Shown piece by piece: positions 36,588 to 64,000 of a stretch of DNA of 64,000 bases. Below the pieces are notes generated by a model. That model saw nothing but the letters and a program-made list of their open reading frames with translations, did no database searches and had not been told where the DNA came from. The DNA comes from a virus. The translations under genes were made by a program, and so were the position numbers. Within the stretch, counting starts at the first letter, position 1. Every line of letters starts with the position of its first letter. The stretch covers positions 1-64,000 of the IMG/VR virus record IMGVR_UViG_3300017971_000027, one strand, 5' to 3'.

Positions 36588-36616
36588 ACTATACCACATC
36601 TCGGGCTGAAAGTCAA
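36588..36616 (-). promoter_or_regulatory. sigma70 promoter
   Basis: TTGACT-N17-TATAGT within TGTGGTATAGT. Confidence 0.8.
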
Positions 36617-41073: not shown

Positions 41074-41159
41074 GAACTTTTTTCACTTTCATTCTACTGG
41101 CCATTTTCAACCGTGGTTGAAAGCGTTGAAACCTAGGTTGAAACTTGCTTGTCCAGCAC

Positions 41160-41696: not shown

Positions 41697-41927
41697 ATGA
41701 AGCTGAAAGCAAAACTGGACAGGGAAGTTGGCAACCTCGGAGACGTTCAATATTACGTCCTGAAAGTCGAGACTGACAAAGGCGTAGAGTTCACCTTCCG
41801 TCTGTCTTGCAACGATTACAGGCCGATTGCCGAACTGGAAAACGGTTCTCTTGCACGTCTGTCACACTATGAGGCCCGTGACGCTATGGATTTGATGGCA
41901 CGTCTCATCAATAAAGAGATAGCGTGA
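41697..41927 (+). CDS. hypothetical protein
   Basis: RBS AAGGAGGTG, ATG at 41697; followed by a hairpin at ~41949-41994. Confidence 0.7.
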   Translation: MKLKAKLDREVGNLGDVQYYVLKVETDKGVEFTFRLSCNDYRPIAELENGSLARLSHYEARDAMDLMARLINKEIA

Positions 41928-42018
41928 TCGGCATTTCTCGGCAAAACTGGGGTAGAATTTGAGGTCGGTCTACACGCCGATCTCATTTTACCCCTATAAA
42001 CATTGGCTAAAAAAGTTC

Positions 42019-42047
42019 TTGACTTTTGTCTCGAATTAGTGTATAGT
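42019..42047 (+). promoter_or_regulatory. sigma70 promoter for the noncoding locus
   Basis: TTGACT-N17-TATAGT; no RBS-led ORF follows for ~880 nt. Confidence 0.75.
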
Positions 42048-42053
42048 ATGTAT

Positions 42054-42630
42054 GCAAGGTTGGGACAGTAAGTACAGCCAAGCAGAACGGCAGTCTGGAG
42101 ATTGAGGCTCCGATAAATGCGAACGGCAGGACTGCCAAGCTCATTGACAGTTGAATAAATACGAAACATGCGACAAGATTCAGATGCCATACCACTGAGT
42201 GGATTCGAGCTGAGATAGGCAATGTTTCGTTGCGCCGGTGCTGGTGTAGCCCCGTGGAGAACCATTTGGGAGATAAGCCGACATGAACGTGTCGCAAAGG
42301 CACCAGCACCGGCAGGTCGGCGCACACATAGTAAGTCGCCAGAGTAAAGCGAAAGGAGCGGGTTGATCGCCGTGTACTGGGACTGGGTGCTGGCGCAGGC
42401 GCGATGCGAAAGTCCGCGAGTAGGTCGCATATGTGTGTGTCGACCATATAAAGTTTTCGAGTGGCCGCACGAGCTGGCAGTTTCACCCCAATCTGGAAGG
42501 TCTGCGAAACAGGCCATATAGGGGAGTATCGGGAATTGATCAGTCCGACTGAGACGCTGACGAAACTAATCGGGAATTAACTCGTAGATGGCGTATGGCG
42601 CGAGGGGTTGAGTCCTCGGGCTGTCAGTAC
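42054..42630 (+). ncRNA. unknown multi-domain structured RNA
   Basis: Stems GGCAGTC/GACTGCC, GCCGGTGCTGGTG/CACCAGCACCGGC (13 bp), GGTCGGCGCACACATA/TATGTGTGTGTCGACC (16 bp with G-U), GGTCTG-CGAAA-CAGGCC. Confidence 0.65.
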
Positions 42631-42632
42631 TC

Positions 42633-42807
42633 GTCGAGCCACTTTTAAGCACTGGATGTCGACGTTGGTTCGAATCCAACCGTAGCGGCCGCTGGCATAA
42701 CATTAAGCCCTGTCCTACTGAAAAGGTAGTAAGGCTGTCAGCATATGAGATCACTCGGCGTAGCTCAGAGGTCAGAGCGGTTCAGTGCTTATAGAATTTG
42801 GCTGGAC
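42633..42807 (+). ncRNA. YrlA-like Y RNA (circularly permuted tRNA mimic)
   Basis: T arm GTTGG-TTCGAAT-CCAAC (42664-80) precedes D arm TA-GCTC-AGAGGTCA-GAGC (42761-78); closed by TAAGCACTGGAT/GTTCAGTGCTTA and GTCGAGCCA/TGGCTGGAC. Confidence 0.7.
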
Positions 42808-42888
42808 GTTACCGTCTGTTGCCGAGACCCCGCTGGTAACGGCGGGAGCGGTGAAATTCCGTGGTAACGTCCGAACGAAATTTTCTTC

Positions 42889-42918
42889 TTGACAAACGAT
42901 ATTGACTTGTGGTATACT
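42889..42918 (+). promoter_or_regulatory. sigma70 promoter
   Basis: TTGACA-N18-TATACT within TGTGGTATACT. Confidence 0.85.
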
Positions 42919-42944
42919 AGGTTCAGAAGATAAGGAGATTGAAC

Positions 42945-44169
42945 ATGGCACTTCAAATTGAACAAGAAAGAGTCAACCGGATAGCTCGGCGGGTACGGAA
43001 GTCTAATCTGGACTTTGTCGAGGGCCAGCTCGAAGCGATACAGCTTCTGGCTGAAAGCATCGTGCGAAATGACCCTGACCGGCAGGGTCTCGTTGCCCAG
43101 CACATTGTCAATCGGGTTGGTCGTGCGCTGAGGAATTTGGACGCAGCACGTAACGCATAAGGAGACAGATTATGTTTATGACCAAGGCTGAAGCATGGAA
43201 ATATGAAAACACGGTCACCTGCGGGTTCTGTAAAGATTGGATCGACCCGAACGAATGCGACGAGAATTCCGAGTTGCTCGATTGGATCGGCGACGAGAAG
43301 GATGCCGACTACGAACTGTGTGATCGGACTGACGAATTGCATGTGTGCTACGATTGCGCAAAAGAGTTGAAGGTCGAGATGGAAGCACGGAAGTCCAACT
43401 GGGACGAGGTGGCAGAAGGAATGGCGTGGCCCTACAAGTAAGGGTCGCGCTGTTTCTATGTGTGTGTGTGGAGGTGAACATGAACAGCGTTGTTGCTAAA
43501 TGTCCATATGATGGATGTCAGAGAAAGATGGAACTGTTCTTCGATATATTCGAAGGCCAGTACGCAACGTGCGAGCATTGTGGCAAACTTTTCTGGCTCG
43601 AGTTGGAAGTCGCCATAATCAGCACATCAACACATAAGCTGAAAGGATATGAATAGCATGTACCATAAAGAACTTATCGAACAGTTGGAAGATTACTCGT
43701 TCAGGTCGGGTTACCTGAAGTCGAGTCTGGTACTGTTGGTCAAGGCTATTGAGTCGCATCTCGATTGCAACGACACAGAACCTGATAGCTGGCTCAGACG
43801 GCAGCTCGAAAGAGAACGCAAGACCCTTGAGCTTATCGCCGAGGCTGACAAAAGGAGAATGGCATGTATTGGAAGATAATGTTACCTGCAATCGTGATCG
43901 CGGTGTTCGTCTGCTGTATGGCATGTGTTGTGCAGTACGAGCGGAATGACATAGAACGTATCGAGAAGGCCGACAGGCTGCATATGATAGAGCCACCTGT
44001 ATTCGAACCGGCCAACACGACAGAAGTGGCCCATATGGCGAATTCGGGCGACGAGCCGGTGTACATGGTAGTACGGTATGAGGTGGCTGAGTCGGAGACG
44101 GGCTGGGAGACGGCTGCGGTCTTCGAAGTCGGCACGGGCCAGAAACTGAAGATAGAGGTTAGTGAATAG
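42945..44169 (+). other. operon of small hypothetical proteins (42945..43160, 43172..43441, 43480..43656, 43649..43879, 43864..44169 with N-terminal TM)
   Basis: AGGAG/GGAGG RBSs, coupled ORFs. Confidence 0.65.
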
Positions 44170-44518: not shown

Positions 44519-45448
44519 ATGGCCAGAAAAATCAGCGCAGCAACGAGAGCAAAGAGAGCTAAAGAATCGAAAGAAAGAGTCCGAGGCGTGATGGACACTA
44601 TCATCTACGCTTTCGAGAACGGGACAGTAGCACCGGCATTAGCCCAGCGATGGCTCGTTCCTGCGGACGTACCGCAACGCAAATGGTCAATCCGAAACCA
44701 GATGCTCTGTGCGCTGGCTGGTGCGACTGATGCCCGTGGCTACAAGCTATGGCGTGATATGGGCCGTGAAGTGGTTAAAGGTAAATCTATCCGACTGCTT
44801 CGTCCGAACATGGTTCCTGTCGAGGAAGTCAATCCCAATACCGGCGAACTCGAAAAGAATTATGTCATGCGTGGGTTCAGATGCTTCGCAGCGTGGGACG
44901 TTTCCAATACGACCGGTCCTGAAGAAACTCTTCCAGCATACCTTGCCGAACATAAGAAATTCGTCGAGTCCCTACCTCTGGTCGAAGTGGCACAGAAGTG
45001 GGGCATCAACGTCATTGTCGGTGGCGGGAACGATAACAGCTCGACTATGGGATGGTTCCAGCCACGTACGCAGACTATCAAGCTGAACGTGGAGAATCTT
45101 TCGACGTGGACGCACGAGCTGATACATGCTGCCGACTACCGGCTTGGAAATCTAATCCACGACGACGAAACATGGCTGACCGAAGCAGTAGCTGAACTGG
45201 GCGGTGCGGTTCTTCTGAGCCTGATAGGCTACAAAGATGACGCCGACCTCGGTGGGGCTATGGAGTATATCAAAAAGTACGCTACGAGCGCAGATAAAAG
45301 GTTAGGGAACGCATGCGACCTCGCCATGAAACGTGTCGAAGCTGCTATCGACCTTATTATGGACGCTGCGGGATTGAGTGTTGACCTGTCCGGTGAATTG
45401 GAGGCTGAAGCTGCAGATGGCTCTGAGGACGAGCTGGTGGCTGCGTAA
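44519..45448 (+). CDS. ArdC-like antirestriction protein (ssDNA-binding domain + zincin-like domain)
   Basis: WS..NQ.L, RGY..W...GR.V.KG...I.L..P, F....WDVS.T.G, HELIH, E.VAE. Confidence 0.85.
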   Translation: MARKISAATRAKRAKESKERVRGVMDTIIYAFENGTVAPALAQRWLVPADVPQRKWSIRNQMLCALAGATDARGYKLWRDMGREVVKGKSIRLLRPNMVPVEEVNPNTGELEKNYVMRGFRCFAAWDVSNTTGPEETLPAYLAEHKKFVESLPLVEVAQKWGINVIVGGGNDNSSTMGWFQPRTQTIKLNVENLSTWTHELIHAADYRLGNLIHDDETWLTEAVAELGGAVLLSLIGYKDDADLGGAMEYIKKYATSADKRLGNACDLAMKRVEAAIDLIMDAAGLSVDLSGELEAEAADGSEDELVAA

Positions 45449-63423: not shown

Positions 63424-64000
63424 CTATAGTTCGACCGCTTCGATCTTCCTGACCATCTCAGCACGTTTACCTTCGGTCATGTTAGACATGAACTCGAAGA
63501 TCTTTTCCGAGAAGCCAGCGATGCAGTAAGCTTTCCGTTCAGGGAACATCAGCTGACCATAACCCTGCAAGTCGAAACTATAGATTTCAGGGTCCGCATC
63601 GTATTTCTTGCAGTACTTGGCAAACGAGCTACGCGGGTTGCCACGCTCGTTGCCTATCCAGCCCTGCATGTCAGACAGGATAATCACCCTGTCGTACTTC
63701 TTGTTCGCAACTTCGAAAATTGCGTGGAAGTTTGTGCCACCAGCTTTGAATTGCATATTTTCAGCCAAGGTCAACACGTTTGCACTCGGGTCCAGATTAC
63801 GGTATTGCGCGTAACTCTGGAACGTCATGAAATCAGCGTTGTTCGACTTGAATAGCACGGCTGCGAACATCGCACCAATCTCTGCCGGTGTAGGTGCTGG
63901 CTTGCCGTTAGGCTGCGTTCCACCACCCCACTGCATTGAACCGGACACGTCCAGCACGACAAGTGTGTCACCGTCGAATACCGGCACGTTCTCAAGTGCA
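63424..64000 (-). CDS. TROVE-domain Ro60/Rsr protein, C-terminal vWA part (5' end beyond window)
   Basis: ALENVP.F.G.TLVVLDVSGSM (MIDAS), GGTNF, DRVIILSDMQ.W, FDL.GYG, AGFSEKIF. Confidence 0.9.
   Translation of the reverse strand, partial: ALENVPVFDGDTLVVLDVSGSMQWGGGTQPNGKPAPTPAEIGAMFAAVLFKSNNADFMTFQSYAQYRNLDPSANVLTLAENMQFKAGGTNFHAIFEVANKKYDRVIILSDMQGWIGNERGNPRSSFAKYCKKYDADPEIYSFDLQGYGQLMFPERKAYCIAGFSEKIFEFMSNMTEGKRAEMVRKIEAVEL

What the first reader, a model, noticed from the sequence alone, without database searches (positions are those of the whole stretch)
42633..42807. Circularly permuted tRNA mimic (YrlA-type Y RNA) in a phage that also encodes Ro60
Seen: a perfect T arm (42664-80) comes BEFORE a perfect D arm (42761-78). 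The anticodon stem is replaced by a long terminal helix (42646-57/42780-91, continued by 42633-41/42799-807), with a 6-nt variable region and a single G26-equivalent in tRNA geometry. The acceptor-like stem is closed by an unusually large insert with its own stems (GCTGGCA/TGTCAGC). Known: this permuted order is the architecture of bacterial YrlA Y RNAs, which bind Ro60/Rsr through a GNCGA(A)-type motif in the terminal stem; GTCGAG is at 42633, one A short of consensus. A TROVE/Ro60 gene lies at the right edge of this window. Inference: a phage Ro60-Y RNA ribonucleoprotein whose RNA is ~21 kb from the protein gene, expressed from an early promoter and carrying an extra domain. It could act as a tRNA decoy against anticodon nucleases or steer host RNA decay.
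Basis: partly seen in the sequence, partly recalled or inferred. Interest (0 to 1): 0.88.

Follow-up and report, generated by a model that had tools for sequence, protein, structure and literature searches.

The report
Inside-out tRNA in long phage RNA
A marine phage carries a real back-to-front tRNA look-alike, but it is one domain of an ~840-base folded non-coding RNA and lacks the signature shared by the five Y RNAs next to the phage's Ro60 gene, so it probably belongs to a separate, undescribed RNA.

Summary
At 42633-42807 (+) a canonical T arm precedes a canonical D arm. A 12-bp helix in exact tRNA register joins them (about 1 in 10,000 by chance). Re-joining the two halves in silico gives a sequence that ARAGORN calls a tRNA.

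- The element is the middle domain of an ~840-nt non-coding transcript (about 42054-42892). It lies behind one of the phage's sigma70-type promoters. Its fold is strong and specific to the + strand.
- The Ro60 gene exists (63424-64965, minus strand). It has its own promoter-driven array of five Y RNAs directly upstream, outside the window.
- Those units, and the units beside related Ro60 genes in four other phages, share a covarying scaffold and an invariant UACUUC.
- A covariance model of that scaffold finds every Ro60-adjacent unit (30-127 bits). On the candidate it matches only the T arm (12 bits).
- Rfam YrlA gives no hit. GNCGAA is not met. The locus is 20.6 kb from Ro60, on the other strand.

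No homologue was found in any collection, so covariation could not be tested, and no RNA-seq run holds it. Earlier scan notes describe Ro60-independent permuted-tRNA RNAs beside DUF7873 genes in other phages; this phage has no DUF7873.

Verdict: real tRNA mimic, new context, partner unknown.

The parts
42019..42047 (+). Promoter P1 (TTGACT-17-TATAGT) of the long non-coding RNA; predicted start about 42054
   Evidence: 10 of 12 consensus positions. It belongs to a family of about 17 phage promoters. It shares an identical 19-mer with the promoter at 41083(-) and a ~60-nt cassette with the promoter at 36616(-), which drives a protein gene.
42054..42892 (+). Inferred ~840-nt non-coding transcript with three domains; the 3' end is not defined (no intrinsic terminator; the next promoter begins at 42889)
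   Evidence: Fold z = -3.8. The + strand folds at -315 kcal/mol against -268 for the minus strand, with 24 G.U among 257 pairs. No credible ORF. The minus-strand 216-aa ORF 41867-42517 has no homologue and a negative codon score.
42064..42635 (+). Domain I: a long branched rod with perfect 14-bp (42234-47/42300-13) and 16-bp (42315-30/42430-45) stems and several GAAA-type loops
   Evidence: MEA structure. Sub-hairpin z-scores are -6.3, -3.7 and -2.4.
42632..42641 (+). 5' strand of the basal helix of the tRNA-like domain (contains GTCGAG)
   Evidence: Pairs with 42799-42808, 9 of 10 pairs. Pair probability is about 0.6-0.7 for AGCCA/UGGCU only. The outer part competes with domains I and III.
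42646..42657 (+). 5' strand of the 12-bp helix that replaces the anticodon arm
   Evidence: Pairs with 42780-91 without interruption. Probability 0.6-0.8. Chance about 1e-4.
42658..42663 (+). Variable-region equivalent GTCGAC (C42663 = position 48, Levitt partner of G15)
   Evidence: cloverleaf drawn by ARAGORN after re-permutation.
42664..42680 (+). T arm, GTTGG / TTCGAAT / CCAAC
   Evidence: It is the only part matched by the Y-RNA model R1 (12.3 bits).
42681..42690 (+). Acceptor 3' strand CGTAGCG, discriminator G, then CC (followed by G, not A)
   Evidence: 5 of 7 pairs with 42754-60. All 26 tRNA genes of the phage encode CCA.
42689..42753 (+). 65-nt insert capping the acceptor end; hairpin 42691-97/42736-42 with inner stems 42706-09/42733-36 and 42715-19/42725-29
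   Evidence: z only -1.0 on its own.
42754..42760 (+). Acceptor 5' strand CTCGGCG
42761..42779 (+). U8-A9, D arm GCTC/AGAGGTCA/GAGC, and G26
   Evidence: U8-A14, G18-U55, G19-C56, U54-A58 and A9-(U12-A23) are all possible.
42780..42791 (+). 3' strand of the 12-bp helix
42799..42808 (+). 3' strand of the basal helix
   Evidence: It overlaps the 5' strand of domain III (42804-13), so the two folds compete.
42804..42872 (+). Domain III: a three-way-junction hairpin with a 10-bp stem and a GUAA tetraloop
   Evidence: z = -5.0; the MFE structure makes up 53% of the ensemble.
42889..42918 (+). Next promoter (TTGACA-18-TATACT), driving the ORF at 42945
   Evidence: 11 of 12 consensus positions.
63424..64000 (-). 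C-terminal part of the Ro60/TROVE gene. The gene runs to 64965, and the five-unit Y RNA array and its promoter lie at about 64970-65640. Both are beyond the window.

Best explanation
Shown: 42632-42808 is a genuine circularly permuted tRNA-like domain. It has an intact T-loop/D-loop elbow. The anticodon arm is replaced by a rod of about 22 bp (12 bp, an internal loop, then 9-10 bp). The acceptor end is capped by a 65-nt insert.

Inferred: it is the middle of three domains of an ~840-nt structured non-coding RNA made from a host-type (sigma70) phage promoter.

Origin (inferred): its layout is what a fragment running from anticodon loop to anticodon loop across two tandem copies of one tRNA gene would give. 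That includes a G-CC remnant after the acceptor 3' strand. The closing helix would then have been lengthened by seven extra pairs. The arms are perfect while the acceptor stem carries two mismatches, which suggests selection acts on the elbow and the rod.

Function (inferred, not shown): it works like the tRNA-like module of YrlA. It would present a tRNA elbow to proteins or ribozymes that recognise tRNA shape, such as RNase P, 3'-end processing enzymes, the CCA-adding enzyme and TruB/Dus-type modifiers. These would either cut the long precursor at the acceptor junction (42753/54 and after 42688), as happens to M. smegmatis YrlA, or be recruited or titrated by it.

It is not a member of the phage's Ro60-linked Y RNA family, so its partner is more likely something other than Ro60.
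For: Structure of the domain:
- Arms, register and tertiary-pair potential.
- ARAGORN calls the re-permuted sequence a tRNA, against 8% of chimeric controls.
- A closing helix of this kind arises by chance about 1e-4 of the time.
- Pair probabilities of 0.6-0.8 in the full transcript.

The long RNA:
- Promoter and promoter family.
- Strand-specific stability, G.U pairs and sub-domain z-scores down to -6.3.
- No coding signal.

Not a Y RNA of this phage:
- Model R1, built from 9 Ro60-adjacent YrlA-type units, has 17 covarying pairs.
- R1 finds all adjacent units, including units not used to build it, at 30-127 bits. On the candidate it matches only the T arm.
- There is no UACUUC on the + strand of 42054-42892.

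Precedent and context:
- The phage encodes the RNA-binding and HD parts of a CCA-adding enzyme.
Against: - No homologue was found, so there is no covariation support for any helix.
- There are no expression or end-mapping data.
- The acceptor stem is weak (5 of 7 pairs). The energy model prefers an extended T hairpin, which would make RNase P recognition doubtful.
- The 3' end of the transcript is undefined, so the RNA could be a long leader of the downstream operon.
- Ro60 binding cannot be excluded. Helix 1 starts with GUCGA, and the RNA's termini can form a basal stem like that of the Y units.
Confidence: 0.5

Rival explanations
1. One reading: it is a sixth, remote Y RNA of YrlA type, or the whole 840-nt RNA is a giant Y RNA. 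It would bind the phage Ro60 through its basal helix and tether Ro60 to a tRNA-recognising factor or to PNPase.
For: - YrlA topology, with Ro60 in the same genome.
- GUCGA followed by CUU in the 5' strand loosely resembles the Rfam consensus GNCGAAUGCUU.
- The 5' context CAGTAC-N10-ACTTT resembles YAGTGA-N8-9-TACTTC of the Y units.
- The transcript termini 42060-71/42881-92 can form the outer-stem/AG-U-RA/UU-U-CU module of the Y units with 6 of 6 outer pairs.
- A Y unit with a ~225-nt insert exists in a related Ro60 phage.
Against: - The clade model R1 scores only the T arm.
- The invariant UACUUC is absent.
- No Rfam YrlA hit.
- Opposite strand and 20.6 kb from Ro60.
- The relaxed 5' motif is expected about 4 times by chance in this genome (my own estimate). 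The basal-stem match is expected 0.55 times genome-wide, and its two halves coincide with a reused leader and with the next promoter's -35 region.
- Three relatives with 49-50% identical Ro60 (G001-G003) have permuted tRNA units only beside Ro60.
Confidence: 0.2
2. It is a member or analogue of a Ro60-independent class of phage RNAs built on permuted tRNA mimics, which works with a dedicated protein partner. Earlier notes of this scan describe such RNAs of 300-650 nt next to DUF7873 genes.
For: - Earlier scan notes (unchecked leads) describe long phage RNAs with one or two back-to-front tRNA look-alikes. At least one of those phages also has a Ro60-like gene with its own RNA.
- The size and the embedded-mimic layout are similar.
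Against: - No DUF7873 match among 83 ORFs of this phage, including every neighbour.
- Only one mimic is present here.
- No sequence comparison with those RNAs was possible.
- The flanking ORFs have no recognisable family.
Confidence: 0.1
3. It is a GOLLD/ROOL-like ornate phage RNA that acts as an RNA-only assembly. The tRNA-like domain would be a passenger or a structural module, as tRNAs sometimes sit in the GOLLD linker.
For: - About 840 nt, phage-encoded, highly branched, with several GAAA/GUAA loops.
- Self-complementary GCGGCCGC and GUCGAC could mediate intermolecular contacts.
- GOLLD exceeds 800 nt and sometimes carries tRNAs in its linker (10.1101/2024.12.08.627333).
Against: - No Rfam GOLLD, ROOL, OLE or raiA match even at E<=10.
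- It is 23 kb from the tRNA island.
- No homologues, so no evidence of a conserved family.
Confidence: 0.1
4. It is a non-functional relic of two adjacent or duplicated tRNA genes inside a spacer.
For: - The acceptor stem has two mismatches, and CCG stands where CCA would be.
- No homologues and no expression data.
Against: - Both arms are flawless, while drift should hit them too.
- Seven extra pairs beyond the 5-bp anticodon stem make a 12-bp helix (chance about 1e-4).
- The halves form one coherent cloverleaf.
- It is embedded in sequence with very strong + strand folding behind a promoter.
- It resembles none of the phage's 26 tRNAs closely.
Confidence: 0.07

Closest known systems
YrlA (Y RNA-like A; Rfam RF02553; Chen et al. 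2014, PMC4201824; Wang et al. 2018, 10.1101/312249)
   Same: - The order 5' stem, (V), T arm, acceptor-like arm, D arm, 3' stem.
- Near-invariant tRNA-type T and D loops with a possible Levitt pair.
- The anticodon arm is replaced by a stem that leads to the RNA's base.
- It occurs in a genome that encodes Ro60.
[quoted passage not shown]
   Different: - No GNCGAAN0-1G motif.
- No Rfam match.
- 20.6 kb from Ro60, on the other strand.
- The acceptor arm carries a 65-nt insert and is mismatched.
- The closing rod is about 22 bp.
- It is embedded in an ~840-nt RNA rather than being an 80-130-nt RNA.
The phage's own Ro60-adjacent Y RNA array and its relatives (five units at about 64,970-65,600 on the minus strand; units in IMG/VR contigs L041-L043 and in LR745206)
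   Same: - Two of the five units (U3, U4) also contain a permuted T arm, hairpin and D-like arm.
- They are driven by the same kind of sigma70 promoter.
- The scaffold is modular and tolerates large inserts.
   Different: Every one of those units has an outer stem, YAGYGA, an inner stem, WUACUUC(G), then UUUCU and the returning outer stem, with 17 covarying pairs. The candidate has none of this at model level (12.3 bits, T arm only).
GOLLD and ROOL large ornate phage RNAs (Rfam; Kretsch et al., 10.1101/2024.12.08.627333)
   Same: Phage-encoded, 580 to more than 800 nt, very branched. GOLLD sometimes carries tRNAs in its linker.
   Different: No model match. Here the tRNA is permuted and has no anticodon. 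The locus is not next to the tRNA island.
DUF7873-associated permuted-tRNA-mimic RNAs
   Same: Long (300-650 nt) phage RNAs built around anticodon-less, back-to-front tRNA look-alikes, independent of Ro60.
   Different: No DUF7873 gene was detected in this phage. There is one mimic, not two. The sequences could not be compared.
Permuted tRNA genes of Cyanidioschyzon merolae and two-piece (permuted) tmRNA genes
   Same: In the gene, the 3' half (T arm, acceptor 3' strand) precedes the 5' half (acceptor 5' strand, D arm). An origin from tandem duplication is plausible.
   Different: No anticodon loop, no tag reading frame, and ARAGORN finds neither a tRNA nor a tmRNA. The closing helix is a continuous duplex, so it cannot decode.

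Membership tests
YrlA (RF02553) | Near-invariant T and D stem-loops in the order T then D, with tRNA tertiary-pair potential | tested here: met
   ARAGORN accepts the re-permuted sequence.
YrlA (RF02553) | An acceptor-like stem-loop (AS) between the T and D arms | tested here: inconclusive
   5 of 7 pairs plus a 65-nt insert. Pair probability is 0 in the ensemble, which prefers GUCG/CGGC. Longer AS arms are reported for some cyanobacterial YrlAs.
YrlA (RF02553) | A GNCGAAN0-1G motif near the 5' end | tested here: not met
   GTCGAGCC at 42633: GNCGA matches, the sixth base is G rather than A, and no G follows. The motif lies at the base of a 9-10-bp helix.
YrlA (RF02553) | Within about 4 kb of the Ro60 gene and on the same strand | tested here: not met
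   Ro60 is at 63424-64965 on the minus strand. The candidate is on the + strand, 20.6 kb away.
YrlA (RF02553) | Rfam covariance model at the gathering score (69 bits) | tested here: not met
   No match at E<=10. The Ro60-adjacent unit U3 itself gets only 17.1 bits.
YrlA (RF02553) | Bound by Ro60/Rsr | not testable with these tools
   Needs a pull-down or a gel shift.
Y-RNA scaffold of this Ro60 clade (model R1) | Outer stem, YAGYGA, inner stem, invariant WUACUUC, then UUUCU and the returning outer stem | tested here: not met
   Filters-off cmsearch gives 12.3 bits for the T arm only. No TACTTC on the + strand of 42054-42892. All adjacent units score 30-127 bits.
tRNA gene | A contiguous cloverleaf with an anticodon loop | tested here: not met
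   ARAGORN finds none in the window. The Rfam tRNA model gives no hit.
Two-piece tmRNA | A permuted acceptor/T domain plus a tag reading frame | tested here: not met
   ARAGORN -m finds none. There is no tag ORF.
GOLLD / ROOL / OLE | A match to the Rfam models | tested here: not met
DUF7873-associated tRNA-mimic RNA (scan notes) | An adjacent DUF7873 protein gene | tested here: not met
   Not among the Pfam families found for 83 ORFs. Caveats: the ORF calling was crude, and only the 25 best of 31 families were listed.

The most novel reading that the evidence does not exclude
The ~840-nt transcript is the founding example of a new class of large, ornate phage non-coding RNA. It has domesticated a circularly permuted tRNA as one of its domains. 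It may act as a giant Y-like RNA whose ends form the same basal stem as the phage's Y RNAs, linking Ro60 or another ring or tRNA-binding protein to the host's tRNA-processing machinery early in infection.
Probability: 0.2. Interest if true: 0.8.

Novelty: new variant of a known kind. Interest (0 to 1): 0.6.

Why it matters
Permuted tRNA mimics are so far known in print only as small Y RNAs next to Ro60, and the job of their tRNA-like domain is still unknown. Here the same phage has the classical Ro60/Y-RNA module and, elsewhere, a better-preserved tRNA mimic built into a much larger folded RNA that lacks the Ro60-associated signature. If this RNA is expressed, two things would follow. First, the inside-out tRNA would be a portable RNA module used outside Ro60 particles. 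Second, one genome would offer a natural side-by-side comparison: which mimic binds Ro60, and which is cut by RNase P or receives CCA. That comparison would address what tRNA mimicry is for in phage infection. It would also add a candidate to the short list of very large structured phage RNAs.

Tried and rejected
Searches for homologues, all negative:
- blastn of 42400-43000 and of 41990-42660 against 50,697 phage records.
- The pattern 'T loop, N68-98, D arm' in IMG/VR gave 38 hits. Nearly all are adjacent tRNA pairs, and none of the contigs is related to this phage.
- The same pattern in JGI metagenomes gave 2 hits: a tRNA pair, and a tRNA with a duplicated 3' end.
- The same pattern in GTDB genomes gave 0 hits.
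- blastn against three phages with related Ro60.
- The scan's own index of look-alike stretches.

Synteny route:
- The neighbouring proteins are ORFans, or an ArdC with at most 45% identity elsewhere.
- The terminase has no close relative in IMG/VR, and at most 33% identity in GenBank phages.

Expression: no RNA holder is listed. Two DNA runs hold the stretch, and their contigs are identical to the window with no variants.

Other points:
- The Atlas look-up of the two flanking small ORFs gave nothing usable.
- Rejected: an attP-like tRNA fragment. The upstream sequence has no U33-type anticodon loop, and the 12-bp helix would be unexplained.
- Rejected: an anticodon-nuclease decoy, because there is no anticodon loop.
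- Rejected: a DNA-level palindrome or origin, because of the strand-asymmetric folding and the G.U pairs.
- The 'giant Y RNA' basal stem is kept only as a hint.
- MAFFT alignment of all five Y units was poor. It was replaced by an alignment of nine YrlA-type units.

Full report
**1. What is in the sequence**

The window is bases 1-64000 of an 83,796-bp IMG/VR phage record with terminal repeats and 48.9% G+C. It is held by a sediment and a seawater metagenome run.
- a T arm, GTTGG/TTCGAAT/CCAAC (42664-80);
- 83 nt later, U8-A9 and a D arm, GCTC/AGAGGTCA/GAGC (42761-78);
- one G (42779);
- a 12-pair uninterrupted helix between 42646-57 and 42780-91;
- a further helix, 42632-41/42799-808, with one G.G mismatch.

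The six bases between the helix and the T stem (GTCGAC) end in a C that can pair with G15. The partners for U8-A14, G18-U55, G19-C56, U54-A58 and the A9 triple are all present.

ARAGORN and Rfam find nothing here, as expected for a permuted order.

I then joined 42754-42791 to 42653-42691 in silico. ARAGORN called the product a 76-nt tRNA at default stringency. Chimeras of unrelated halves of the phage's own tRNAs passed in only 31 of 380 cases. A helix of 12 or more pairs in that exact register arose in 19-48 of 200,000 random trials. The element closely resembles none of the phage's 26 tRNAs. 'Two unrelated degraded tRNA halves' is therefore unlikely.

The weak point is the acceptor stem. 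It has five of seven pairs, and the energy model never forms it. The model instead extends the T hairpin with GUCG/CGGC.

**2. The surroundings change the picture: a long non-coding RNA**

There is no promoter next to the element. A sigma70-type promoter lies at 42019-47 and the next one at 42889-918. The first belongs to a family of about 17 near-identical phage promoters. It shares a 19-mer and a ~60-nt cassette with promoters that drive protein genes.

Between the two promoters there is no credible ORF. The 216-aa minus-strand ORF that a gene caller would place there has no homologue among 5.8 billion proteins. Its codon score is negative, -0.08 against 0.10 +/- 0.10 for real genes.

The 851 nt fold with z = -3.8. 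Sub-hairpins reach z = -6.3 and -5.0. The + strand is 47 kcal/mol more stable than the minus strand, with 24 G.U pairs. This points to RNA on the + strand, not to a DNA palindrome.

The maximum-expected-accuracy fold has three domains: domain I (42064-42635), the tRNA-like domain II, and a three-way hairpin, domain III (42804-72). Earlier notes of this scan on the same stretch had flagged an ~800-nt structured non-coding locus. That prompted me to look upstream, and I verified the promoter, the lack of coding signal and the fold myself.

**3. Ro60 and its own Y RNAs**

The TROVE gene is real (63424-64965, minus strand). Just upstream, outside the window, a consensus promoter is followed by five tandem units. 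Each has an outer stem, YAGTGA, an 8-9-nt inner stem, WTACTTC, a variable insert, the returning inner stem, TTTCT and the returning outer stem. Two units (U3, U4) contain a T arm, a hairpin and a D-like arm. Rfam YrlA aligns weakly to U3 (17 bits).

Three IMG/VR phages with 49-50% identical Ro60, and the huge phage LR745206 (47%), carry the same kind of array directly upstream of Ro60. All have the invariant (G)WTACTTCG.

An alignment of nine YrlA-type units shows 17 pairs with compensatory changes in the scaffold. A covariance model built from it (R1) recovers every Ro60-adjacent unit, including units not used to build it, at 30-127 bits. On the candidate, with filters off, it matches only the T arm at 12.3 bits. 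No TACTTC occurs on the + strand anywhere in 42054-42892. In the three relatives, permuted tRNA units occur only beside Ro60.

**4. Membership**

Against the published definition of YrlA (PMC4201824):
- The T and D loops and their order are met.
- The acceptor-like arm is doubtful.
- GNCGAAN0-1G is not met.
- Proximity to Ro60 and same strand are not met.
- The Rfam threshold is not met.

The element works like, and probably descends from, the same kind of tRNA permutation. It should not be filed as a YrlA, nor as one of this phage's Y RNAs.

Two hints keep a Ro60 link alive.
- The 5' context CAGTAC-N10-ACTTT loosely echoes the Y-unit motif. By my own estimate, that relaxed motif is expected about four times by chance in this genome.
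- The transcript's ends (42060-71/42881-92) can form the Y units' basal module with six of six outer pairs. However, such matches are expected 0.55 times genome-wide. The two halves also coincide with a reused leader and with the next promoter's -35 region.

**5. Other candidates**

- No GOLLD, ROOL or OLE match. The size, the phage origin and the occasional tRNA in the GOLLD linker make that class the nearest large-RNA analogue.
- Earlier scan notes describe many phage RNAs of 300-650 nt with back-to-front tRNA mimics next to DUF7873 genes, independent of Ro60. I found no DUF7873 among 83 ORFs of this phage, and I could not compare the RNAs.
- The flanking small ORFs are uninformative.

**6. 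Mechanism**

Shown: the sequence, the register, and the strand-specific folding potential.

Inferred: transcription from P1.

Proposed: the domain offers a tRNA elbow on a ~22-bp rod to tRNA-shape readers. The acceptor junction (A42753/C42754; G42688 followed by CC) is where RNase P and 3' processing would act, as documented for M. smegmatis YrlA. The phage encodes part of a CCA-adding enzyme. Perfect arms next to a mismatched acceptor stem suggest that the elbow, not an aminoacylatable end, is under selection.

**7. Limits**

- No RNA run holds the locus, and the two DNA runs show no variants.

The locus is a singleton, and all functional statements are inference.

Noticed in passing
G000 64,970-65,640 (minus strand; L002:2110-2830, L059:970-1640), beyond the window: Five tandem Y-like RNA units behind one consensus promoter, directly upstream of Ro60. 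The same scaffold, with an invariant UACUUC and 17 covarying pairs, stands upstream of related Ro60 genes in L041, L042, L043 and LR745206. Rfam YrlA barely detects it (17 bits).
   Followed up: partly
L056:2570-2860 (LR745206.1, a 635-kb uncultured phage): A Y unit with the full scaffold and GATACTTCG, carrying a ~225-nt insert without a T loop. The scaffold therefore tolerates very large cargo.
   Followed up: no
Whole genome, e.g. window 27353, 42019, 42889, 44412 (+) and 41073, 40748, 39058, 36616, 27323 (-): About 17 very similar sigma70-type promoters (AAAACCTC-TTGACA-N12-TGTGG-TATAAT). Seven lie in the tRNA/Ro60 region. Promoter cassettes, including about 15 nt of leader, are reused.
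   Followed up: partly
G000 69848-70762 (minus strand; L059:5848-6762): A 304-aa ORF with PolyA_pol_RNAbd and HD domains, the C-terminal parts of a CCA-adding enzyme. It lies inside the 26-tRNA array and abuts tRNA-Pro. No nucleotidyltransferase head domain was seen in this ORF.
   Followed up: no
G000 65655-66080 (minus strand; L059:1655-2080): An ORF with a type IV pilin-like N-terminal methylation motif, lying between the tRNA array and the Y RNA promoter.
   Followed up: no
window 41949-41998: The hairpin after the 76-aa ORF, just upstream of promoter P1, weakly resembles the Y scaffold (R1 6.1 bits, E 0.24). It is probably only a terminator-like hairpin.
   Followed up: no
window 42658-63, 42685-92: The palindromes GTCGAC and GCGGCCGC sit at the variable region and at the acceptor 3' end of the tRNA-like domain. 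GGCCGC...GCTGGCA recurs at 42463-78, and GGCTGTCAG at 42619-27 and 42733-41. These offer alternative or intermolecular pairings.
   Followed up: no
window 44519-45448: An ArdC-family anti-restriction-like protein. Its best homologues (at most 45% identity) include Planctomycetota (Thermoguttaceae, Symmachiella), a weak hint about the host.
   Followed up: no
L058:4638-4830 (OGVN01000025.1): A tRNA-like gene with an abnormal, long anticodon region. It is preceded by a duplicate of its own T arm and acceptor 3' strand, which looks like an integration-site duplication.
   Followed up: no
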